DNA from: a bacterium
Lineage (GTDB): Bacteria > Bacillota_I > Bacilli_A > RFN20 > CAG-826
NCBI GenBank assembly: GCA_029098125.1
Contig: JAQXNS010000003.1
Span: forward strand, 2,845-66,844
Direction: 5' to 3'
DNA: 64,000 nucleotides
In this document: positions 2,719-60,846 of the stretch, in pieces
Layout of the letters: each line of letters opens with the position of its first letter
Numbering within the stretch: position 1 is the stretch's first letter
Notes under the pieces: model-generated
Database searches by the model: none
What the model saw: the letters and a program-made list of their open reading frames with translations, nothing else
What the model was told of the DNA's origin: nothing
Position numbers and translations under genes: made by a program

Positions 2719-5559
2719 ATGAAAAGATTTGCAGGATATTTATCACTTTGCGTGTCAGTCGTGACTGCAGTTTTAGTTGGAGTCGTTCCAACAATTTTAG
2801 GCACGAATGGCAGCGGCGATTATTCTTCTTCTAACAAATATGTTTTCAAAGTGAGCAACAAGCAAGTTAGCTCTAGTGAGTTTTCTGATGGAACAAACAA
2901 TGGTTTAACTTATGATGAAAACGGTAATACACCAGCTGAAGATATTTCAAATGAATTCAAAGTTAGATTAGGACAAGCTGGAATTACTGGATACCAACTT
3001 GCAACAATTAATGACGATATTATTGAATTAACTTTTAAAGACAGTCAAAACATTTATACAGATGTTATTGATTTTTTAACTTATTCAAATTCATTAATGG
3101 CAAAAACTTACGATGGAGAATATTCATTTGGTTTTAGCGCATCTGAAATTTATAACGGTGCAAAACCTTCTAATTCCACATTTTTAAAACCTGGAACAGC
3201 AAGAGTTGAGTATAGAGACAACTATCCTTATGTTATTATGGATTTAAATTCTCCAGAAGAGTTTAATAATGCAATTAAATCACTTACTCAAACAAGTAGC
3301 GATTCAGATAGCAATAGAAATGCAGGCGAATTATTAGGAAATACAATTAGAAAAGCTGGTGAATCAACATCCGAAGAAGAACAAACACCAAAAGTTGACC
3401 CAAAAAAGGCAATTTTTGTTTTAAACAACTGGTTAAATGACTTTACACTTGAAGGTTTATTAAATAACAGCAACGGAAATATCACAAATGATAATTTTCA
3501 TAATTACGTTTTAACTTATTTTGATGCTGCAGAACCATCAAAAATCTATTGGGATTATGATTCTTCTCTTTCAAGTGAAGACCAAAATAAAAAGATTTAT
3601 GAATCAATTTATTTTTCATTTTATAATCTCGGAGCAGCAAATGGTGAGGGTTGTTTAGATGTTACAACATCTTATTCTCTTTATAATGTTCAAGAAACTG
3701 ACTCAAAATTAGCTTATAGAAAAGCAAATATTTTAATGAATAAATTAAATTCAAGTGATTACAAATATCAAATTACTTTAATTAATGAATCAAAGGTTAA
3801 TGAAGGAACAAACACAGTTTCTCCATTTAAAGAATATTTAAAACGTGCTGGTTCAGTTAATTTATCAACTTTATTAATTTCAACAATTATTGCTGCAATT
3901 ATTGTATTTTTATTCTTAATTTTACATTATGGAGCAGCAGGAATTTTAAGTTTTGCATTATCTTTAGGCAACGTAATCGGTTCACTTGCTTTATTTAATT
4001 TCTTAGGAAATGAATTTAATATCGGTACAATTATCGGCTTATTTGGTGTTGCATTAATAACATTAATTACAACAATTCAATTTATGCATAAAGCAAAAGA
4101 AGAAGTTTACGCTGGCAAAGCTCTCAAAAAGGCTTATCAAGAAAGTGGTAAGAAAAACACATGGTTATTACTTGATGTTTCAGTTATTACTGTAATTTTA
4201 GGTTTAACATGCTATTTAATCCAAAACGCAAACTTAATTGCATTTGGAGGAATCACAATTATTGGTGCAATTATCAATGTTTTATTGAGCGGAATTGTCT
4301 TTAGAGGCTTCTCATGGTTCCTTTATAACTCTGATTTCGCTTCAAAACATCCAAGAGTACTTCAAATCGAACCAAAATTAATCCCTGATTTAACAAAAGA
4401 AGAAAAAGCAAAATATTTTGATGAATTTAACCGTGGTGATTCAAAACGTACATTTAAAGTTTACGGAATCGCTGGTCTTGTTTTACTTGTTGCTTCAATT
4501 GTTGGAATTACAACTTTCCAAGTTGTTAATGGAAATATTTACAATTCAACAGAAACATCAAAATACAATTCAGTTACTGTCCAATACAATTTAGTTAACG
4601 CTAACGATGAATTTATTGTTGATAATAAGATTTTAAAAATCGAAGAAGCATTTGATGATATTTATAAGGATCAAGATTTAAGCACTAAATATTTTAAAGC
4701 TGACTCAATTTCTGTAGATTCTTATTACAATGAATATTTAGCTGGTGAAACTAACCCAATTAAATACAGAGAATATTATTTTGTTGTTGATTTAGGATCA
4801 AATTACGATTTTGATACTTCTGTTTACTACTCAAATGGTGGTTCAAAAGTTGCTGATAAACTTGGAAATGTCATCAAAACATCAATTCAATCAAAATTAG
4901 ATACAAACTATCTTGTTTCAATCAATGTAACTAAGAATGTTAGTGATGATTTCAATAATAAAGATGTTGCAATTGCAGTAGCAATTACAGTCGCAATTCT
5001 TTTTGCTTACTTTATCTTAAGATTTGGCCCTTCAAAAGCATTAACTGCTTTATTAGTTGGCGCTTCATTATTAACAATTTCAATTGGTATCTTCTCACTT
5101 ATTAGAGGTAATTTCACAAGTGAATTAACTCTTGGATTACTTTTAATTACTTTATTAACTTATATTTCATTTACACTTTACTTTATTGATGAACAAGCTC
5201 TCGTTAGAGAAAACAAAAAAGAACTTTCCGATCTTGATAAGAGACAAGAAAAATTCGAATATTCAGCAAATATTACATATAAATTAGTGTTTAATATCGC
5301 ATTATTTGCAATATTTATCGTTATTAGTTTCTTCTTCTCAACATCTTTGCAAGGTTACACACTTTTATATTTCATTGTTTCTTTGATTTTATCCTCAATA
5401 TTAATTAAAGGAACAGCATTACCAATCGAAATGTTCTTCTCTAGATCTTTTAAGAAGATATTTAGCAAAAAACCAAATATCGTTATTAACAAAAAAAGTA
5501 AACAAAAATCTGATGATGATGGCCCACAAGAAGCTATCTTTATTGGAATTAATGACTAA
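2719..5559 (+). CDS. secDF: Protein-export membrane protein SecDF (fused)
   Basis: Two SecD/SecF-type multi-TM bundles (around ...LISTIIAAIIVFLFLILHYGAAG... and ...AIAVAITVAILFAYFILRFGPSKAL...), each preceded by a large extracytoplasmic domain. The ORF-track start at 2707 is GTG. The ATG at 2719 lies 6 nt after GAGG. Confidence 0.8.
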   Translation: MKRFAGYLSLCVSVVTAVLVGVVPTILGTNGSGDYSSSNKYVFKVSNKQVSSSEFSDGTNNGLTYDENGNTPAEDISNEFKVRLGQAGITGYQLATINDDIIELTFKDSQNIYTDVIDFLTYSNSLMAKTYDGEYSFGFSASEIYNGAKPSNSTFLKPGTARVEYRDNYPYVIMDLNSPEEFNNAIKSLTQTSSDSDSNRNAGELLGNTIRKAGESTSEEEQTPKVDPKKAIFVLNNWLNDFTLEGLLNNSNGNITNDNFHNYVLTYFDAAEPSKIYWDYDSSLSSEDQNKKIYESIYFSFYNLGAANGEGCLDVTTSYSLYNVQETDSKLAYRKANILMNKLNSSDYKYQITLINESKVNEGTNTVSPFKEYLKRAGSVNLSTLLISTIIAAIIVFLFLILHYGAAGILSFALSLGNVIGSLALFNFLGNEFNIGTIIGLFGVALITLITTIQFMHKAKEEVYAGKALKKAYQESGKKNTWLLLDVSVITVILGLTCYLIQNANLIAFGGITIIGAIINVLLSGIVFRGFSWFLYNSDFASKHPRVLQIEPKLIPDLTKEEKAKYFDEFNRGDSKRTFKVYGIAGLVLLVASIVGITTFQVVNGNIYNSTETSKYNSVTVQYNLVNANDEFIVDNKILKIEEAFDDIYKDQDLSTKYFKADSISVDSYYNEYLAGETNPIKYREYYFVVDLGSNYDFDTSVYYSNGGSKVADKLGNVIKTSIQSKLDTNYLVSINVTKNVSDDFNNKDVAIAVAITVAILFAYFILRFGPSKALTALLVGASLLTISIGIFSLIRGNFTSELTLGLLLITLLTYISFTLYFIDEQALVRENKKELSDLDKRQEKFEYSANITYKLVFNIALFAIFIVISFFFSTSLQGYTLLYFIVSLILSSILIKGTALPIEMFFSRSFKKIFSKKPNIVINKKSKQKSDDDGPQEAIFIGIND

Positions 5560-16802: not shown

Positions 16803-16983
16803 TTCTTTTGAAGAAAAGATGAAAAAACTAAATGAAATCGTCGAAAAATTAAGCGATGAATCAGTTTCTTTAAATGATTCTTTAAATTTATATGTTGAAG
16901 GAAAAGAGTTAATTAAAGAACTTTTTAAGTATATTAACGAAGCAAAGGAAAAAGTACAAGAAATAGATAAAAATACTAATTAG
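16792..16983 (+). CDS. xseB: Exodeoxyribonuclease VII small subunit
   Basis: MENNSFEEKMKKLNEIVEKL... is a typical XseB helical hairpin. The ORF-track start 16774 is TTG; the ATG at 16792 overlaps the xseA end by 11 nt. Its TAG stop (16981-16983) is the first TAG of repeat array 1. Confidence 0.8.
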   Translation: MENNSFEEKMKKLNEIVEKLSDESVSLNDSLNLYVEGKELIKELFKYINEAKEKVQEIDKNTN

Positions 16984-17052
16984 TAGATTTCTAGTAGGTT
17001 TCTAGTACATTTCTAGTACATTTCTAGTATGTTTCTAGTACATTTCTAGTAG
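16981..17052 (+). repeat. 11-bp CTAGTA tandem-repeat array 1 (about 6.5 units)
   Basis: tTAGTAGATTT CTAGTAGGTTT CTAGTACATTT CTAGTACATTT CTAGTATGTTT CTAGTACATTT CTAGTAG. CTAG starts at 16991, 17002, 17013, 17024, 17035 and 17046, an exact 11-nt period. Confidence 0.97.
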
Positions 17053-21367: not shown

Positions 21368-22138
21368 ATGAAGATATTTCCTTTTCTTAAAAAATATTCG
21401 AAATATATTTATGAATCATTAGGCGTAATTTTTCTTCTAGTTTTAGTTGAAATTATTGCAATTTTAATAAATGATCCATTGCTTTTTCCTGGAATTGATA
21501 AAATTTTCCTTGGATTAGGTACAATTATGTCAAATAAATCTTTTTATTTGGCTTTTTTTGAGTCTTTTTTAAGAACATTTATTGCTATTTTTTCTTCATT
21601 TATATTGGCTTTTGTTTTGGGGCTGATTGCAGGGTTATTTTCTAAAGTAAAATATTTTTTATCACCTCTTGTAGGTTTATTAAAATTAGCTCCAACGCCT
21701 TGCATCGTTTTTGTTTTATTTCTTGTGTCAAAAGGTGATGCCTACATTACATCACTAGTTATTACATTTTTGGTTGTTTTTCCTATTTTATATCAATCTT
21801 TTGTTAGTGGAATTGAAAATATTGACCCTTATATTAAATCTTCTTTAGTCATTGAAGGATTTTATACAAGAAAAACAATTTTTAATGTCATTGTTCCTCA
21901 AGCTAGCCCATATCTTTTATTAGGAGTGCTAAATTCACTAGCTTTAGGTGTTAAAGTGTCTATTGTTAGTGAAATACTTGTTGGTAGTGATTCAATATGG
22001 GGATTAGGTCGATTAATCTATGTATATAAAATTGATGCAAATTTCGATTTAATGATCGCAATGACGTTAATTATCGTCATTTTCTTTGCGTTTATTGACT
22101 TATTAACTATTGTTTTTAAAAAAATCTTAAAAAAATAA
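21368..22138 (+). CDS. ABC transporter permease (binding-protein-dependent, TauC/SsuC-like)
   Basis: 256 aa with about 6 TM segments and an EAA-like loop IEGFYTRKTIFNVIVPQASPYLLLG. No ATPase gene is adjacent. Confidence 0.6.
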   Translation: MKIFPFLKKYSKYIYESLGVIFLLVLVEIIAILINDPLLFPGIDKIFLGLGTIMSNKSFYLAFFESFLRTFIAIFSSFILAFVLGLIAGLFSKVKYFLSPLVGLLKLAPTPCIVFVLFLVSKGDAYITSLVITFLVVFPILYQSFVSGIENIDPYIKSSLVIEGFYTRKTIFNVIVPQASPYLLLGVLNSLALGVKVSIVSEILVGSDSIWGLGRLIYVYKIDANFDLMIAMTLIIVIFFAFIDLLTIVFKKILKK

Positions 22139-22143
22139 AAAAA

Positions 22144-22189
22144 TTTTTAAAAAAATTAATTTTGACTCCTTTTATTTATGTGAAAGGAG
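22144..22189 (+). promoter_or_regulatory. 46-bp leader, copy A, with SD-sequestering hairpin
   Basis: TTTTTAAAAAAATTAATTTTGACTCCTTTTATTTATGTGAAAGGAG is identical to the reverse complement of 47291-47336. CTCCTTT (22166-22172) can pair with AAAGGAG (22183-22189), which is the SD for ATG 22199. Confidence 0.75.
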
Positions 22190-22198
22190 GTTAAAAGT

Positions 22199-22759
22199 AT
22201 GTCAGATAAAAGTGATAATGAAAAAAGATATTTCATTGTTGAAAAAACAAGCAGCAAACTTGTTGAACAAATGGTATGGACTGAAGAAGCAATTAAAAAA
22301 GAGAACTATAATGAAGATAAACATAATTCCTTCTCTTTGAGAAAAGGTTTTGTTTATAAATATATTAAAAGAATTTCGTCCAACAATCGTATAATTTATG
22401 GTTTTTGTGTTGTTTTAGCTGATTCAGCTAAATATGATTCTCACGTACTAATTTGTCCTATTTATCCATTTATGGATAGTATTAACAAAATCAGTGTAAA
22501 TATTGGAGTAGTGCCACAACTTGATGGCACATGCGAGATAATTGGAAGTTTATGCGAAATAAATTTTGCAAGTAAAACAAGATTCATATTAAATAAAGAA
22601 AATGATATTGAACCTGTTCCTGTTTGTTATCTAAACAAAGATCAATATTTGAAATTACTTTTATCGTACAAAGATTTTATCTGCGCAATTGTTAAGAGCA
22701 ATTCTTCAATTCGCGTGTCTTATAGAAATCAAGATAATGAAATGACTTATACGTGCTAG
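22199..22759 (+). CDS. Hypothetical cytoplasmic protein (186 aa)
   Basis: Strong SD (AAAGGAGG). No motif recognised with confidence. The central region faintly resembles a PemK/MazF-like beta-barrel pattern (...YGFCVVLADS...HVLICPIYPF...). It is the last + strand gene before the strand switch. Confidence 0.55.
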   Translation: MSDKSDNEKRYFIVEKTSSKLVEQMVWTEEAIKKENYNEDKHNSFSLRKGFVYKYIKRISSNNRIIYGFCVVLADSAKYDSHVLICPIYPFMDSINKISVNIGVVPQLDGTCEIIGSLCEINFASKTRFILNKENDIEPVPVCYLNKDQYLKLLLSYKDFICAIVKSNSSIRVSYRNQDNEMTYTC

Positions 22760-22809
22760 ATTATTTTTAATAAACATATACCTTCCAAAAAATATCTATA
22801 ATTGCCAAA

Positions 22810-22875
22810 TTAGTAGGTTTCTAGTAGGTTTCTAGTACATTTCTAGTAGATTTCTAGTAGATTTCTAGTAGGTTT
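22810..22875 (+). repeat. 11-bp CTAGTA tandem-repeat array 2 (6 units)
   Basis: tTAGTAGGTTT CTAGTAGGTTT CTAGTACATTT CTAGTAGATTT CTAGTAGATTT CTAGTAGGTTT. Lies between convergent genes. Confidence 0.97.
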
Positions 22876-22927
22876 TTCAGATTTTCTGATTTAAAATTTG
22901 TTTAACCTACTTTTTTATTTTTTGAAT

Positions 22928-22955
22928 TTTTTACTTAATATATATTATGCGAAGT
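22928..22955. other. Candidate dif (Xer recombination) site
   Basis: TTTTTACTTAATATATATTATGCGAAGT. The right 19 nt (AATATATATTATGCGAAGT) match my recollection of B. subtilis dif (AATATATATTATGTAAACT) at 16/19. The left arm matches poorly. Located at the gene-orientation switch. Confidence 0.3.
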
Positions 22956-22975
22956 AGTTTTGAACATTAAAAAAG

Positions 22976-23596
22976 CTATAAATAGTACTCAACGCACTCT
23001 TTTGTATACTTATTCATCAATGTCGAACTATCTTCTTTTACTTTAGATTTTAGAAATTTCAGGTTTTCATTCAAAACTAAAATAAAACCTTTTTCATAGT
23101 CGTCTAACATAGCATCTATCATAAACTTACTATCGTATCCTCTTCTTGGATCGATTTTATCGCATGCATAGACGATTTTTTGATAAGTGTCCATTTCTCT
23201 ATTTCCGCTACAATGATATTTAACTGCATCAAGTATTTCTTTGTCAAAAATTCCAAAATCTCTCATTAGTATTAATTCGCCTAAAAACTGATGATATGAA
23301 AAATCAGGCATATCAATGTCATTTTTATAATATTTGTCCATTAAATTGTAAGATTTTTCGCTAGAAATATCTTTTGCAATATCGTGAAGCAGTCCAATTT
23401 CATAATATTTTTTAGGATTTGGTAGATTGTTTGCTATTGCCACCCTATATGAAAGCTCCGCTACTGACATTGAGTGCAAAAGTCTTTTTTTGTTAATGTA
23501 TGTAAGCAAAAAGTTGAAGAGTTCTTCTGCTACTTCAACTTGATTTTTGCTAAATTTTATATGTTCAAAGAGAATTTTTTCGTTTAATTTATCCAT
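22976..23596 (-). CDS. yqeK: HD-domain phosphohydrolase YqeK (Ap4A hydrolase family)
   Basis: HSMSVAELS...GLLHDIAKD HD motif. Last gene of a yqeG-yqeH-yhbY-yqeK cluster. Confidence 0.8.
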   Translation of the reverse strand: MDKLNEKILFEHIKFSKNQVEVAEELFNFLLTYINKKRLLHSMSVAELSYRVAIANNLPNPKKYYEIGLLHDIAKDISSEKSYNLMDKYYKNDIDMPDFSYHQFLGELILMRDFGIFDKEILDAVKYHCSGNREMDTYQKIVYACDKIDPRRGYDSKFMIDAMLDDYEKGFILVLNENLKFLKSKVKEDSSTLMNKYTKECVEYYL

Positions 23597-25561: not shown

Positions 25562-25640
25562 ATATACATTATAATATATAATTCATTTTATTAAAATATT
25601 TGTAGGTAAAATCAATCTTTACATTTCAAAAAATAAGTCT

Positions 25641-25714
25641 AACTACTAAAAACCTACTAGAAATGTACTAGAAACCTACTAGAAATGTACTAGAAACCTA
25701 CTAAAAAACTACTA
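25641..25714 (-). repeat. 11-bp CTAGTA tandem-repeat array 3 (5 clean plus 2 decayed units, minus orientation)
   Basis: Forward strand reads ...CTACTAA AAACCTACTAG AAATGTACTAG AAACCTACTAG AAATGTACTAG AAACCTACTAA AAAACTACTA. The GG and CA units alternate strictly. Lies in the divergent gap between yqeG and ORF 25763. Confidence 0.97.
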
Positions 25715-31501: not shown

Positions 31502-31578
31502 CTAGTAGGAAACTAGTAGGTTTCTAGTACATTTCTAGTACATTTCTAGTAGGTTTCTAGTACATTTCTAGTACATTA
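31502..31578 (+). repeat. 11-bp CTAGTA tandem-repeat array 4 (7 units)
   Basis: CTAGTAGGAAA CTAGTAGGTTT CTAGTACATTT CTAGTACATTT CTAGTAGGTTT CTAGTACATTT CTAGTACATTA. Begins 2 nt after the plsY TAG stop and lies upstream of the plsY terminator. Confidence 0.97.
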
Positions 31579-46086: not shown

Positions 46087-47283
46087 TTACTCCATCGAGT
46101 AATATTTATAGAGACATTTATAGTATTTATATTCTTCTTGATGCATAACTATTTCTACGATTTTAGCAACATTTTTAGAAAGAGTTAGATACATAAAAAG
46201 ATGGAACAATATAAAATTTAGCGAAATTGAATCAGAAAGAGATGAATAAACTAAAGATAAAATTCCAGCAATAAAAATGACTATATAATTTTTTAAGTTT
46301 TCTAAATTTACATAACGATATGTTTTATTTTGGATTAAAACCATCCTAGATTTAAAATCCATTTTTGATGTAATTCGATCTTCGAAAATGTTTCTTTCTA
46401 AATTATCAATTTCATATGTATCACTTTTGAAGCATTTTTGTTGAACAAAAGTCATAATCAACATCGTTGAAACGATAATTATGAAATTTAAAATATTTAA
46501 ATATGAGTTAAAACCTAAAATTAGTAAGCCAAAACCTGTAACTAATATAAGATTAGCTATTTGCATAGGTGTTCCAAGGTGCAATTTCTTAAAATTTGTC
46601 ATTTGTATATAACGATCTTTAAAATCAACTGCCAATCCATTAAAAACAGTATTCATAATCTTCTTGTCAAAATATTTCATTTCTTTTATAACTAAAAACT
46701 TATAAAAAATTTCGCATACTATAAATGCAGCTAAAAAAATCAATGGAATATAGAATTTTATTTCTGTATCGATTGTCGACATTGCTAATGCAAGTATTAA
46801 AAAAGATACAAATTGCAAAGCTAAAACCCCGTATGAAAATAAAGGAGGTACAATTTTAATTTTTGGACACTTATAATCTTTATAAAAAACTTCTTTAATT
46901 TCTAAGCATGAGCCATCCCAAATTCGATTCAATTCGCTAATTGTATAGTAAATTTTGCCTCTTTTTGGATCATAAACGGTAATTTTTTCTCTTTTTATCT
47001 TTCTAATTAGGACCATGTGCAAAGTATTACCATCTTTTACTGGGATTAATAATGGCAATTTACTCTCTTTTAAAAGATCGTCTTTGTATTTAAATCTAAA
47101 TGCAGTCAAAATAACGCCTTCACCTTTGGCAAGCTTTATTATTTCTTCAAGTGAATAACTTCTATCGATATCATTTTGTTGATAATACAAATAATCTTTA
47201 TTTTTATGTGTAATTGCTAAAAGCATTTTTAAGCAGGCAAATGCACAATCTTTTTGGCCTAATTGTCGTATGAAATATTTCAT
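46087..47283 (-). CDS. Peptidase C39 domain / transmembrane protein without an ABC ATPase domain
   Basis: N-terminal Q-x5-C (QLGQKDCAFACLKML) and HMVLI...ITVYDP match the C39 Cys/His/Asp pattern. About 6 hydrophobic helices follow. The protein ends at 398 aa with no Walker motifs. Confidence 0.65.
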   Translation of the reverse strand: MKYFIRQLGQKDCAFACLKMLLAITHKNKDYLYYQQNDIDRSYSLEEIIKLAKGEGVILTAFRFKYKDDLLKESKLPLLIPVKDGNTLHMVLIRKIKREKITVYDPKRGKIYYTISELNRIWDGSCLEIKEVFYKDYKCPKIKIVPPLFSYGVLALQFVSFLILALAMSTIDTEIKFYIPLIFLAAFIVCEIFYKFLVIKEMKYFDKKIMNTVFNGLAVDFKDRYIQMTNFKKLHLGTPMQIANLILVTGFGLLILGFNSYLNILNFIIIVSTMLIMTFVQQKCFKSDTYEIDNLERNIFEDRITSKMDFKSRMVLIQNKTYRYVNLENLKNYIVIFIAGILSLVYSSLSDSISLNFILFHLFMYLTLSKNVAKIVEIVMHQEEYKYYKCLYKYYSME

Positions 47284-47290
47284 AAAAAAA

Positions 47291-47336
47291 CTCCTTTCAC
47301 ATAAATAAAAGGAGTCAAAATTAATTTTTTTAAAAA
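47291..47336 (-). promoter_or_regulatory. 46-bp leader, copy B, with SD-sequestering hairpin
   Basis: Reverse complement is identical to 22144-22189. The stem 47291-47297 / 47308-47314 contains the SD of the C39 gene. On the minus strand it is followed by U7 and then ATG, so it could also terminate rpsU transcripts. Confidence 0.75.
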
Positions 47337-47355
47337 ATATTTCAATTTTTTTAAA

Positions 47356-47529
47356 TTATCTATATTTTTTTCTTGCGTTTTCGCTTTTTAATTTTCTTTT
47401 AAGATTTTTCTTTAAAAAGCATTCTCTTCTTCTGCATTCTTGGATAGTTCCAGCTTTATTAACTTGTCTTTTGAATCTACGTAATGCATCATCGAGTGTT
47501 TCGCCATCTCTAATTACTACTTTTGACAT
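47356..47529 (-). CDS. rpsU: 30S ribosomal protein S21
   Basis: Not in the ORF track. My translation is [57 protein letters not shown] (57 aa). SD GGAGGTGAAGG. Confidence 0.9.
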
Positions 47530-48234: not shown

Positions 48235-48279
48235 TTTTTAACTCCTAATTTATTAAATTTATTTCATTTTTGTTTTGCA

Positions 48280-48356
48280 CTATCTACTAGAAATGTACTA
48301 GAAACATACTAGATATATACTAGAAACCTACTAGAAATGTACTAGAAATCTACTAG
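48280..48356 (-). repeat. 11-bp CTAGTA tandem-repeat array 5 (7 units, minus orientation)
   Basis: Forward strand reads CTATCTACTAG AAATGTACTAG AAACATACTAG ATATATACTAG AAACCTACTAG AAATGTACTAG AAATCTACTAG. The last unit contains the TAG stop (48353-48355) of the upstream pseudogene. Confidence 0.97.
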
Positions 48357-49299
48357 TTAGTGTTTTTTTGTATTTTTGATATTAAATCCATTACTTTTTG
48401 TGTATCGCTGTGTGGCATTGATTTTGTTTCAATTTTTTTGTTAGTTATTGCGTCGTAACACTCATAAAATTGATATTCGTAGCCATTTATTTGATCAACA
48501 AATTTCTTTGTACTGATAAGATTTCCGCTATTATCATAAACAATTATTTGGTATGGATTATTTATATTATCAACGTATAAATATCCTTTTGATCCATAAA
48601 TATAACCGCTTCTATCTGATCTTCCTTTCATGGAAGAATATAAAATTGCGGATACATTATTTGGGTAAATTAAATGTATGATGTCGGTTTCGTCTACCCC
48701 ATTGTTCATAAATAAAGTCGATTTTACGTCAATATAATTGTCTCCTAGAACCATTAATGCAAAATTTATTGGATAAACTCCTACATCCAATAGGGCTCCA
48801 CCACCAAGTTCTTTCTTGATTAATCTTTCAATATTATCGATTTTATATGATAATTTGCTGAAACCAGATAAATATCCCCAATTATTCCATCATTTATCAA
48901 TTCATTGATGTAAATTCTTGATGGCATATATCTTGTCCATATTGCTTCTGCTAAGAAAACATTGTTTTTATGCGATAGTTTGATCAATTCTTCACTTTCT
49001 TTTGAATTAACAGTAAATGATTTTTCAACAATCACGTTCTTTTTAGCTTCTAGGCAAGCTTTTACATCATTAAAATGGTTCGAAATATATGTCGAAACAT
49101 ATACTAAATCAACGTTATCATCTTTTAAAAGATCTTCATAACTTTCATAGGCTTTTTGAAATCCTAGCTCATTTTTATACTCTAAACATCTAGAATAATC
49201 TCTTGAAGCACAGCCAAAAAGAACGAATCTTTCATCGTTTTTTAAAGCTTCTACTATTTTTCTTCCTATTTTGGAACATCCATAAAATGCTAAATTCAT
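48353..49299 (-). pseudogene. Gfo/Idh/MocA-family oxidoreductase, frameshifted
   Basis: ORF 48820-49299 encodes the Rossmann N-domain and ORF 48353-48790 the C-domain. The -1 frame across 48790-48860 reads ...KIDNIERLIKKELGGGALLDVGVY, joining the two, so a single frameshift lies near 48830-48865. Confidence 0.7.
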
Positions 49300-60690: not shown

Positions 60691-60758
60691 GATATTTCTC
60701 CGTTAAAGTTAAAAATATTATAACACATGTATTCTGATTTTAAAGATAATTTTTGAAA

Positions 60759-60846
60759 ATTATTACTAGAAATGTACTAGAAACCTACTAGTTATCTACT
60801 AGAAACCTACTAGAAATGTACTAGAAACCTACTAATTATCTACTAA
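60759..60846 (-). repeat. 11-bp CTAGTA tandem-repeat array 6 (8 units, minus orientation)
   Basis: Forward strand reads ATTATTACTAG AAATGTACTAG AAACCTACTAG TTATCTACTAG AAACCTACTAG AAATGTACTAG AAACCTACTAA TTATCTACTAA. Lies between lepA and the Fic-like gene. Confidence 0.97.

What the first reader, a model, noticed from the sequence alone, without database searches (positions are those of the whole stretch)
22144..22189. Identical 46-bp leader with an SD-sequestering hairpin in front of two unlinked accessory genes
TTTTTAAAAAAATTAATTTTGACTCCTTTTATTTATGTGAAAGGAG occurs at 22144-22189 (+), 9 nt before the ATG of hypothetical ORF 22199. It also occurs as a perfect reverse complement at 47291-47336, 7 nt before the ATG of the C39-peptidase/TM gene. 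A 46/46 identity between intergenic regions 25 kb apart is not expected by chance.

In both copies, CTCCTTT pairs with AAAGGAG (7 bp, 10-nt loop). The only Shine-Dalgarno sequence is therefore locked in the 3' arm of a hairpin, in the style of an RNA thermometer or another translational switch. At the second locus the hairpin is followed by U7, so it could also terminate rpsU transcripts. The shared leader suggests the two genes are co-regulated and possibly functionally linked.
Basis: seen in the sequence. Interest (0 to 1): 0.62.

Follow-up and report, generated by a model that had tools for sequence, protein, structure and literature searches.

The report
Competence-regulon promoter cassette with built-in hairpin
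The repeated 46-mer is one of at least 17 near-identical control cassettes that precede the DNA-uptake and recombination genes of an uncultured pig-gut bacterium, so it marks that organism's natural-competence regulon and is not a private switch shared by two genes.

Summary
In detail: the 46-mer is exact at 22144-22189 (+) and 47291-47336 (-), with the stated distances to the ATGs.

It is not a two-copy element. The draft genome (a Candidatus Onthovivens-like pig-gut MAG) holds 17 copies of a cassette about 75 nt long. The cassettes precede comFA-comFC, comEA-comEC, dprA, recA, rpsF-ssb, a Tad/Com-type pilus operon, a ligase-like gene, ABC transporters, a short peptide with a Gly-containing leader, the C39 peptidase gene, the hypothetical ORF (which has a MazF fold) and several non-coding units.

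Each congener examined has its own species-specific version in front of the same genes.

The hairpin is real: 12 bp, about -14 kcal/mol, with the Shine-Dalgarno sequence in the 3' arm. Its arms covary across the genus. However, 7 of the 17 copies lack it. It is strong mainly where a co-oriented gene ends just upstream, and it does not melt between 25 and 50 C.

Best reading: a competence-regulon promoter embedded in a terminator and Shine-Dalgarno trap that silences read-through. The transcription start and the regulator are inferred, not shown.

The parts
22122..22163 (+). AT-rich upstream box of copy 1 (aaaaaTTTTTAAAAAAAwTAwTTTT plus about 20 nt further upstream). Candidate activator, UP or -35 region.
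   Evidence: Nearly invariant across the 17 copies. Each congener has a different box that is shared by its own com genes.
22164..22191 (+). Hairpin of copy 1: 5' arm 22164-22175, loop 22176-22179, 3' arm 22180-22191. No U-tract follows.
   Evidence: dG -14.4 kcal/mol, z -5.2. Not flagged as a terminator.
22170..22187 (+). Most conserved core block, TTTTATTTATGTGAAAGG (motif positions 27-44). Candidate -10, discriminator and transcription start (predicted start about 22182-22185).
   Evidence: Kept in all 17 copies, including those without a hairpin or a nearby ATG. RNA structures of the non-coding units and of the pilus leader begin at position 40.
22183..22190 (+). Shine-Dalgarno sequence AAAGGAGG, 8 nt before the ATG at 22199.
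22199..22759 (+). P0001, 186 aa. A MazF/PemK-fold protein with added N- and C-terminal helices. A genus-wide member of the regulon.
   Evidence: No Pfam or NCBIfam hit. Orthologues in 46 of 60 congeners, each behind that species' own cassette. AF2 pLDDT 78.4; the top 50 Foldseek hits are all MazF-family mRNA-interferase toxins.
21368..22138 (+). Co-oriented upstream gene (ABC permease-like). It ends 6 nt before the 46-mer and is the source of read-through transcripts.
47317..47358 (-). AT-rich upstream box of copy 2. It starts at the rpsU stop codon.
47289..47316 (-). Hairpin of copy 2: 5' arm 47316-47305, loop 47304-47301, 3' arm 47300-47289. The Shine-Dalgarno sequence AAAGGAG is at 47297-47291.
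   Evidence: dG -14.2 kcal/mol, z -6.5. Flagged as terminator-like with 12 pairs and a T tail.
47284..47290 (-). U7 tract between the hairpin and the ATG.
46087..47283 (-). P0002, 398 aa. C39 peptidase domain plus a membrane domain, with no ABC ATPase domain. A conserved member of the regulon.
   Evidence: Peptidase_C39 E = 4.7e-18. Aligns to the N-terminal half of peptidase-containing ABC transporters. The G008 orthologue sits behind that species' own cassette (L113).
47356..47529 (-). rpsU, the co-oriented upstream gene of copy 2.
   Evidence: Metatranscriptome contigs cover it.

Best explanation
The 46-mer is the core of a cassette about 75 nt long that serves as the common promoter and leader of this organism's natural-competence regulon.

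The cassette has three parts:
- (i) An AT-rich, partly palindromic upstream box. It probably binds a still unknown activator or serves an unusual sigma factor.
- (ii) A nearly invariant block, TwTTATTTAwGTGAAAGG. It probably holds the -10 region and the transcription start (about motif positions 39-42), so induced mRNAs begin at GAAAGGAG and carry a free Shine-Dalgarno sequence.
- (iii) A variable 5' arm. Where a co-oriented housekeeping gene ends just upstream, this arm pairs with the Shine-Dalgarno region to form a 12-bp hairpin, often followed by a U-tract.

That hairpin terminates read-through transcripts or leaves them untranslatable, which keeps the competence genes off until the cassette's own promoter fires.

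Shown here: the copy number, the gene content, the hairpins and their covariation, and conservation of this design across the genus. Inferred: promoter activity, the position of the start site, the regulator, and competence itself.
For: A discrete family.
- There are 17 copies scoring 42-53 bits by nhmmer; the next hit scores 13 bits.
- All copies point at the downstream gene. Ten have an ATG 6-10 nt after the Shine-Dalgarno sequence.

Downstream genes.
- ComFA-type helicase plus ComFC.
- ComEA (HHH_3/SLBB) plus a ComEC-like multi-TM/MBL protein.
- DprA (E = 4.5e-61), RecA (E = 4e-128), S6-SSB.
- A pilus operon with a T2SSE/VirB11/ComGA-like ATPase and a hydrophobic pilin-like 63-aa product (my reading; no family match).
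- An RNA-ligase-like protein, ABC/FtsX transporters, the C39 peptidase, and a 61-aa peptide with an LTSEELSSIKCG leader.

The cassette must contain a promoter.
- The first C97 copy sits directly behind a strong terminator of the preceding gene.
- The pilus operon's only upstream neighbour is divergent.

Conservation of the design.
- In about 30 congeners, comFA, dprA and recA each carry a species-specific shared box plus a hairpin.
- In G046 and G008 a pattern built from three genes finds 8 and 10 sites, against 0 in the controls. These include the C39-TMD, leader-peptide and ABC orthologues.
- P0001 orthologues carry each species' own cassette.

The hairpin as an insulator.
- It is strong (dG <= -12) in 8 of 9 copies that have a co-oriented gene ending within 50 nt upstream, against 1 of 8 other copies (Fisher p about 0.003, my calculation).
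- The Shine-Dalgarno sequence lies in the 3' arm in 62 of 78 genus leaders, against 12 of 482 other genes in this genome.
- The arms differ between genes and species while pairing is kept: CCTCC/GGAGG, TCCCC/GGGGA, ACGACT/AGTCGT, CACTAC/GTAGTG.
- The rpsF-ssb copy on contig C16 has a compensatory U-A to G-C change.
- RNA that starts at position 26 or 39 has a mostly free Shine-Dalgarno sequence (0.4-0.98 unpaired), against 0-0.13 in read-through RNA.

The start site. The structures of the non-coding units and of the pilus-operon leader begin at A40.
Against: - No transcription start site was mapped. Only low-depth metatranscriptome contigs exist, and they show read-through across two copies and no signal over the C97 units.
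- The cassette has no canonical sigma-70 -35/-10 pair by the scan's thresholds.
- No regulator was identified. ComK is absent. Only RpoD and one generic ECF sigma with a membrane partner were found, and the cassette does not look like an ECF promoter.
- A second candidate -10 (TAATTT at positions 14-19, with a TTSAAA box 16-17 nt upstream in about 9 copies) would put the start near position 26. That would leave a partly structured leader.
- In several congeners the TATAAT-like loop abuts AGGAGG. A start 7 nt downstream of it would clip the Shine-Dalgarno sequence.
- Within-genome covariation is statistically weak: 87.7% of cells are paired, and 58 of 500 shuffles reach that value.
- recA (contig C76) has a close co-oriented upstream gene but a degenerate 5' arm. 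C41 has a good hairpin without such a neighbour.
- The organism is uncultured, so competence itself is an inference from gene content.
Confidence: 0.7

Rival explanations
1. A post-transcriptional leader switch. Transcription would start upstream of the hairpin, for example from TTSAAA-16/17-TAATTT with a start near motif position 26 or earlier. The conserved loop and Shine-Dalgarno hairpin would be an RNA operator that a competence-specific protein or small RNA opens to allow translation. This is.
For: - The hairpin with the Shine-Dalgarno sequence in its 3' arm is enriched in the family and across the genus.
- The loop and the block next to the Shine-Dalgarno sequence are more conserved than pairing alone requires.
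- A plausible -35/-10 pair lies upstream in about 9 copies.
- The cassette also precedes tandem non-coding units rich in CCUCACCUUCCU-like tracts.
Against: - Seven copies keep the conserved block but have no stable hairpin.
- Copies with no adjacent ORF, such as the rpsF-ssb copy on contig C16, keep the hairpin although no Shine-Dalgarno sequence is needed there.
- Hairpin strength follows the presence of a co-oriented upstream gene.
- An RNA starting at position 26 has already lost most of the stem.
- Rfam gives no match.
Confidence: 0.15
2. An antitermination regulon. The cassette would have no promoter of its own. Com genes would be expressed by regulated read-through of the hairpin terminator from upstream housekeeping promoters, with an RNA-binding antiterminator recognising the conserved sequence that overlaps the 5' arm.
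For: - Nine copies lie within 50 nt of a co-oriented gene's stop codon.
- Copy 2 and at least five others have a hairpin plus a U-run.
- Metatranscriptome contigs cross the cassette at the rpsU-C39 junction and at the lysS-rpsF junction.
Against: - The pilus operon and C41 have only divergent upstream neighbours.
- The first C97 copy follows an independent strong terminator.
- Seven copies lack a terminator-grade hairpin, and copy 1 lacks a U-tract.
- These loci therefore need their own promoter.
Confidence: 0.07
3. A selfish or neutral dispersed repeat. This could be a MITE- or REP-like element, or the product of gene conversion. It would happen to carry a terminator and a Shine-Dalgarno sequence but would have no regulon-level function.
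For: - Identity is unusually high over 46-70 nt.
- The exact core is absent from 40 relatives.
- Assemblies break at it, as they do at repeats.
Against: - Orientation and spacing to the downstream start codon are fixed.
- The downstream genes are functionally coherent.
- Orthologous genes in other species carry that species' own version at the same place.
- I saw no terminal inverted repeats or target-site duplications beyond the hairpin when reading the copies. This was not scanned for formally.
Confidence: 0.04
4. An RNA thermometer. The hairpin would melt at host temperature to expose the Shine-Dalgarno sequence.
For: The Shine-Dalgarno sequence is paired, and the stem contains three G-U pairs and an AU-rich inner part.
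Against: - The stem has 12 bp. dG is -14 to -24 kcal/mol in context.
- The probability that the Shine-Dalgarno sequence is unpaired is unchanged (0-0.13) from 25 to 50 C.
- The organism lives at a constant gut temperature.
- No ROSE, fourU or other Rfam family matches.
Confidence: 0.02

Closest known systems
ComX (SigX) com-box / cin-box promoters of streptococci
   Same: - One short shared promoter element precedes comG/comY, comE, comF, dprA, cinA-recA and ssb. In streptococci it also precedes fratricide peptides with double-glycine leaders.
- In both cases a T-rich tract lies upstream of an extended -10-like box.
- The gene content of the regulon found here overlaps strongly.
   Different: - There is no TACGAATA box.
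- No ComX-like sigma was found with the Sigma70_r2 and r4_2 profiles; only RpoD and one ECF-type sigma turned up.
- The conserved region is much longer, about 55-75 nt.
- The cassette includes the Shine-Dalgarno sequence and a hairpin.
- Its sequence changes from species to species within one genus.
ComK K-boxes (Bacillus) and SigH-dependent com promoters (Staphylococcus)
   Same: - AT-rich upstream recognition sequences activate late competence operons.
- One AAAA-N5-TTTT arrangement can be read in the box.
   Different: - There is no comK gene.
- There is no second AT-box at a K-box spacing.
- There is no SigH-like -35 (AGGAWWT) or -10 (GAAT) pair.
Intrinsic terminators that overlap the next gene's ribosome-binding site
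   Same: - Copy 2 and several others are a stem-loop plus U-tract directly after a co-oriented gene, with the next gene's Shine-Dalgarno sequence in the 3' arm.
- Twelve other genes in this genome show the same overlap.
   Different: - Here the hairpin loop and flanks carry a regulon-specific conserved sequence.
- The same cassette also occurs without a hairpin, and behind terminators or divergent genes.
- It is therefore more than a terminator.
RNA thermometers (ROSE, fourU) and leaders that mask the Shine-Dalgarno sequence
   Same: The Shine-Dalgarno sequence is paired with an anti-Shine-Dalgarno-like CUCCUUU arm.
   Different: - The stem is too stable and is insensitive to temperature in silico.
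- It matches no known family.

Membership tests
RNA thermometer (ROSE / fourU type) | Shine-Dalgarno sequence sequestered in a hairpin | tested here: met
   the Shine-Dalgarno sequence is in the 3' arm in 9-10 of 17 copies.
RNA thermometer (ROSE / fourU type) | A weak or imperfect stem that opens in the physiological temperature range | tested here: not met
   the probability that GGAG is unpaired is 0.00-0.13 at 25, 37, 42 and 50 C. dG is -17 to -24 kcal/mol at 37 C in context.
RNA thermometer (ROSE / fourU type) | Match to a curated family model | tested here: not met
   no Rfam match at gathering score. An E <= 1 search of four other cassette loci also found nothing at any cassette.
Rho-independent terminator | Stable stem-loop directly followed by a U-tract, downstream of a co-oriented gene | tested here: met
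   Met for copy 2 at 47289-47316 plus U7 and for at least five other copies. Not met for copy 1 at 22164-22191, which has no U-tract.
Sigma-70 (SigA) consensus promoter | TTGACA-like and TATAAT-like hexamers 16-18 nt apart, with A at position 2 and T at position 6 of the -10 | tested here: not met
   no site inside the cassette. The candidate hexamers TTTTAT, TATTTA and TAATTT each miss a key position. Four hairpin-less copies have TATTAT.
ComX/SigX com-box regulon | TACGAATA box at -10 | tested here: not met
   absent from all 17 copies.
ComX/SigX com-box regulon | A dedicated ComX-type sigma factor encoded in the genome | tested here: inconclusive
   only RpoD and one ECF-type sigma were found. 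The genome is 92% complete in 140 contigs, and a very divergent sigma could be missed.
ComX/SigX com-box regulon | The shared element precedes the late competence genes (pilus, comE, comF, dprA, recA, ssb) | tested here: met
ComK K-box regulon | ComK protein present | tested here: not met
   PF06338 is absent from the genome, while the control search detects it in B. subtilis.
MITE / REP-type dispersed repeat | Insertion independent of gene orientation, with terminal inverted repeats or target duplications | tested here: not met
   all copies face a downstream gene or RNA at fixed spacing. Orthologous loci in other species carry their own version.
MazF/PemK toxin fold (for the downstream ORF P0001) | SH3-like barrel fold of MazF | tested here: met
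   pLDDT 78.4. The top 50 Foldseek PDB hits are all MazF-family mRNA-interferase toxins (probability 1.00, target TM-score 0.63-0.75).
MazF/PemK toxin fold (for the downstream ORF P0001) | Sequence-level family membership and an adjacent antitoxin gene | tested here: not met
   no Pfam, NCBIfam or PDB sequence match. No small co-oriented partner ORF lies next to it.

The most novel reading that the evidence does not exclude
In Onthovivens-like gut Bacilli, natural competence would be wired through a single composite cassette that places a promoter inside a terminator. The same roughly 60 nt would stop and translationally silence read-through from housekeeping genes, and on induction would fire short mRNAs that begin at the Shine-Dalgarno sequence. 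The cassette and its unknown regulator would turn over together between species. The regulon would recruit previously unlinked functions: a MazF-fold protein (growth arrest?), a C39 peptidase without an ATPase domain paired with a leader-bearing peptide (a fratricide peptide or a new kind of pilin), a ligase, and new non-coding RNAs.
Probability: 0.3. Interest if true: 0.72.

Novelty: new variant of a known kind. Interest (0 to 1): 0.58.

Why it matters
- It gives a first, testable map of a competence regulon in an uncultured, genome-reduced gut lineage (Onthovivens-like; nearest cultured relatives are Erysipelotrichaceae). I found no literature on competence control in this lineage.
- It assigns a context to two orphan genes. 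The hypothetical ORF is a MazF-fold protein conserved across the genus. The C39 peptidase probably processes a co-regulated leader peptide.
- It shows an economical design in a compact genome: promoter, insulator, terminator and ribosome-binding site packed into about 60 nt.
- The species-specific but regulon-wide turnover of the cassette offers a computational route to the regulator, by looking for a protein that covaries with it.
- On the practical side, the repeat breaks assemblies of these genomes.

Tried and rejected
- **Rfam.** A gathering-score search of the window and 13 loci, and an E <= 1 search of four loci, found nothing at any cassette.
- **tRNA and tmRNA.** ARAGORN found none downstream of the cassettes. 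My guess that the non-coding region on contig C8 is a tmRNA was wrong.
- **Genetic code.** I first assumed TGA = Trp. ORF statistics fit table 11.
- **Regulators.** ComK is absent. The weak Sigma70_r4_2 hits are an IS3 OrfA and YlxM, not sigma factors.
- **RNA evidence.** Only Logan contigs at depth 2-14 are available, so no 5' ends could be read. The C97 non-coding units have no coverage.
- **Exact core 16-mer in 40 relatives.** None found. This first suggested a species-only element, until the orthologous upstream regions showed species-specific versions.
- **CTTGTAT as a general promoter box of this genome.** Rejected, because it is rare before genes here. In relatives, part of its conservation comes from pairing of CTT with the AAG of the Shine-Dalgarno sequence.
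- **UP-element and ECF-promoter readings of the AT box.** The positions do not fit (my reading).
- **P0002 in genome contigs.** The search for related loci returned nothing.
- **P0001.** The word-based search found only P0001 itself, and the PDB sequence and profile searches found nothing.
- **Literature.** Searches for RFN20 plus competence, and for C39 peptidases acting on pilins, gave nothing relevant.

Full report
**1. Observation**

The 46-mer TTTTTAAAAAAATTAATTTTGACTCCTTTTATTTATGTGAAAGGAG occurs exactly at 22144-22189 (+) and 47291-47336 (-). No such match occurred in 100 shuffles. The ATGs follow after 9 nt (22199) and 7 nt (47283). Similarity extends to 70 nt at 90% identity (I9).

- It has 12 bp, pairing motif positions 21-32 with 37-48, three of them G-U, around a UUAU loop.
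- dG is about -14 kcal/mol and z is -5 to -6.5.
- Only copy 2 is followed by U7, and only copy 2 is flagged as terminator-like.

**2. Organism**

- The window is C3:2845-66844 of a 1.43-Mb draft genome in 140 contigs, about 28% G+C.
- The genome uses the standard genetic code and has a class B RNase P.
- The sequence is found in pig-gut metagenomes.
- RecA is 80-83% identical to MAGs labelled Candidatus Onthovivens, uncultured Mollicutes or uncultured Bacilli. It is about 62-66% identical to Erysipelotrichaceae.

**3. A 17-copy family, not a pair**

BLAST and an nhmmer profile find 17 copies at 42-53 bits; the next hit scores 13 bits. An ungapped alignment shows three zones:
- An almost invariant AT box, aaaaaTTTTTAAAAAAAwTAwTTTT, with a looser AAAAAAwTTsAAAww further upstream.
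- A variable stretch of 6-8 nt, which forms the outer part of the 5' arm.
- An almost invariant block, TwTTATTTAwGTGAAAGG.

In four independent DNA metagenomes, contig depth rises from about 6-13 to about 90-380 over the 46-mer, and contigs break there. Seventeen is therefore a lower bound.

**4. What lies downstream**

| Contig / locus | Downstream genes or features |
|---|---|
| C58 | ComFA-type helicase plus ComFC (phosphoribosyltransferase domain) |
| C3:72962 | ComEA (HHH_3 + SLBB) plus a ComEC-like multi-TM/metallo-beta-lactamase protein, then a third ORF (holA by position; not tested) |
| C65 | DprA, then a large ORF (topA by position; not tested) |
| C76 | RecA |
| C16 | S6-SSB, then a third ORF |
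| C70 | Pilus operon with a T2SSE/VirB11/ComGA-like ATPase and a hydrophobic pilin-like 63-aa product |
| C32 | RNA-ligase-like protein |
| C67 | Two ABC/FtsX transporters |
| C17 | AAA_21 ATPase |
| C3:1150 | 61-aa peptide with an LTSEELSSIKCG-EAIT leader and a hydrophobic helix |
| Window copy 2 | C39 peptidase plus membrane domain (P0002) |
| Window copy 1 | The hypothetical ORF (P0001) |
| C97 | Three tandem copies; the first two are each followed by a non-coding unit of about 120-135 nt, and a TnpB gene starts about 550 nt after the third |
| C8 | About 590 nt of non-coding sequence with its own terminator |
| C41 | Unresolved |

This is the gene set of a late competence regulon.

**5. 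The cassette must include a promoter**

- The first C97 copy lies directly behind a strong independent terminator of the preceding gene.
- The pilus operon's only upstream neighbour is divergent.

Transcription of these units therefore has to start within or just before the cassette.

**6. Conservation of the design, not the sequence**

The exact core 16-mer is absent from 40 relatives. Even so, in about 30 congeners the regions upstream of comFA, dprA and recA each show the same layout:
- A species-specific AT box shared by the three genes. Examples are GTGAATAwTTTTTT in G046 and G008, AAATTTTTCGGAAAAA in G009, and TTGTAAATTTTTTGAATTCCCCCCC in G016.
- A hairpin whose 3' arm is the Shine-Dalgarno sequence.
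- An AT-rich, TATAAT-like loop.

Two further tests support a regulon:
- A pattern derived from the three G046 genes finds 8 sites in G046 and 10 in G008, with 0 in the reversed-pattern control. The sites include orthologues of the C39-TMD gene, the leader peptide and the ABC transporter.
- P0001 has orthologues in 46 of 60 congeners. In the 17 congener loci examined, each sits behind that species' own cassette, usually after the same ABC permease.

The two focal genes are therefore conserved members of the regulon.

**7. The hairpin**

Within this genome:
- Nine copies have dG <= -12 kcal/mol and one has -9.8. Seven are weak, at -1 to -7 (C17, C67, C76, C8 and the three C97 copies).
- Strong hairpins occur in 8 of 9 copies that have a co-oriented gene ending within 50 nt upstream, and in 1 of 8 others (Fisher p about 0.003, my calculation).
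- Covariation is weak because the copies are so similar: 87.7% of cells are paired, and 58 of 500 shuffles reach that value. There is one clear compensatory U-A to G-C change, in the rpsF-ssb copy.

Across the genus:
- The arms differ between genes and species while pairing is kept: CCTCC/GGAGG, TCCCC/GGGGA, ACGACT/AGTCGT, CACTAC/GTAGTG.
- At least 4 of 5 Shine-Dalgarno bases lie in the 3' arm in 62 of 78 leaders.
- As background, only 12 of 482 other genes in this genome have the Shine-Dalgarno sequence in the 3' arm of a hairpin with dG <= -10. Ordinary terminators leave it free.

Temperature and start position:
- In read-through RNA the probability that the Shine-Dalgarno sequence is unpaired stays at 0-0.13 from 25 to 50 C. 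This excludes a thermometer.
- In RNA that starts at position 26 or 39 the Shine-Dalgarno sequence is 0.4-0.98 unpaired.

**8. Where transcription starts (inferred)**

- No canonical sigma-70 site is present.
- The invariant block is kept in copies that have neither a hairpin nor a nearby start codon, which is what a core promoter would show.
- In the C97 non-coding units a 10-11-bp stem starts at A40. In the pilus leader, GAAAGGGGAAA pairs with TTTCCCCTTTC just before the real Shine-Dalgarno sequence.
- These points favour a start near G39-A42, with TwTTAT (positions 27-32) or TATTTA (30-35) as the -10. The AT box would then lie at about -45 to -20, the usual place for an activator or an unusual sigma.
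- A rival -10 (TAATTT at positions 14-19, with TTsAAA 16-17 nt upstream in about 9 copies) would give a start near position 26.
- Either start removes most or all of the 5' arm.

**9. Regulator**

Unknown. ComK is absent. Only RpoD and one generic ECF sigma with a membrane partner were found.

**10. RNA data**

- Only low-depth Logan contigs are available.
- They cover rpsU and the rpsF operon, and they cross the cassette at two loci.
- They give nothing over the C97 units. This is compatible with a regulon that is silent in the gut, but it is not decisive.

**11. The downstream ORFs**

- P0001 has no sequence-level family, and only 32 relatives turn up among 1.8 billion representative proteins.
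- An AF2 model built on 13 orthologues (pLDDT 78.4) matches only MazF-family mRNA-interferase toxin structures in its top 50 Foldseek hits. It has extra N- and C-terminal helices, and there is no adjacent antitoxin-like ORF.
- P0002 is a C39 peptidase plus a membrane domain, without an ATPase domain.
- The co-regulated 61-aa peptide has a leader resembling a double-glycine leader, or alternatively a class III (prepilin-like) signal. This is my reading and was not tested.

**12. Verdict**

The element itself is a competence-regulon promoter cassette with a built-in insulator hairpin, not a thermometer or a private switch. It is a new variant of a known kind (com-box-type regulons), with several new regulon members. 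Earlier notes of this scan describe comparable competence motifs in other phyla. They are analogies only and were not used as evidence.

Noticed in passing
window 16981-17052, 22810-22881, 25633-25714, 31502-31578, 48274-48359, 60753-60846: There are six intergenic arrays, each with 6-8 tandem copies of an 11-bp unit (CTAGTA-NN-TTT / TAGTAGGTTTC). One array lies just after the P0001 stop codon and one about 1 kb upstream of copy 2. I saw no obvious link to the cassette.
   Followed up: no
window about 22000-23000: Cumulative GC skew peaks here, and gene orientation switches from + to - between 22759 and 22976. The pattern suggests converging replication forks, i.e. a terminus. Copy 1 and P0001 sit at this point.
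   Followed up: no
G000 C97:10890-11360 (L013 about 2890-3360, minus strand): Three tandem cassette copies lie 183-197 nt apart. The first two are each followed by a non-coding unit of about 120-135 nt. Each unit has a 5' stem starting at A40, a C/U-rich CCUCACCUUCC tract and a second hairpin. A TnpB gene starts about 550 nt after the third copy. There is no Rfam match, and four pig-gut metatranscriptomes show no coverage.
   Followed up: partly
G000 C8:380-1012 (L012, minus strand): A cassette without a hairpin is followed by about 590 nt with no ORF, internal repeats (AAAGTTTACkTGCTTCC) and its own terminator. This is a candidate large non-coding RNA of the regulon. There is no Rfam or tmRNA match.
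   Followed up: partly
G000 C3:1150-1390 (outside the window, upstream of rplU) and L111/L124 in G008/G046: A conserved peptide of 60-61 aa has the leader LT(S/D)EEL..IK(C/P)G followed by EAIT and a hydrophobic helix. It is co-regulated with the C39 peptidase P0002. It could be a fratricide-type or bacteriocin-like peptide, or an unusual pilin cleaved by a C39 peptidase.
   Followed up: partly
G000 C70:5220-5360 (L010, minus strand): The 129-nt leader of the pilus operon is closed by long-range pairing of its first 11 nt with the 11 nt just before the Shine-Dalgarno sequence. An internal segment (GAGCTTGAATGAAGCTCATGCTCAAAAGGCG) resembles a sequence upstream of the TnpB gene on C97.
   Followed up: no
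G000 C80:3400-3920 (L045): The only alternative sigma factor found is a 174-aa ECF-type sigma, translationally coupled to a 368-aa single-pass membrane protein that looks like an anti-sigma factor. I found no link to the cassette.
   Followed up: partly
G000 C32:18003-18947: A 314-aa protein with a KxDG motif, resembling an RNA or DNA ligase (PF09414, below the curated cut-off), sits directly behind a cassette. This recalls the ATP-dependent ligases in the competence regulons of Gram-negative bacteria.
   Followed up: no
window 47286-47336 in runs X7, X8, X12, X16: Metagenome contigs end at the 46-mer and depth spikes over it. The cassette is therefore a systematic cause of assembly breaks in these MAGs. 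Contig C67 starts 150 nt upstream of a copy.
   Followed up: partly
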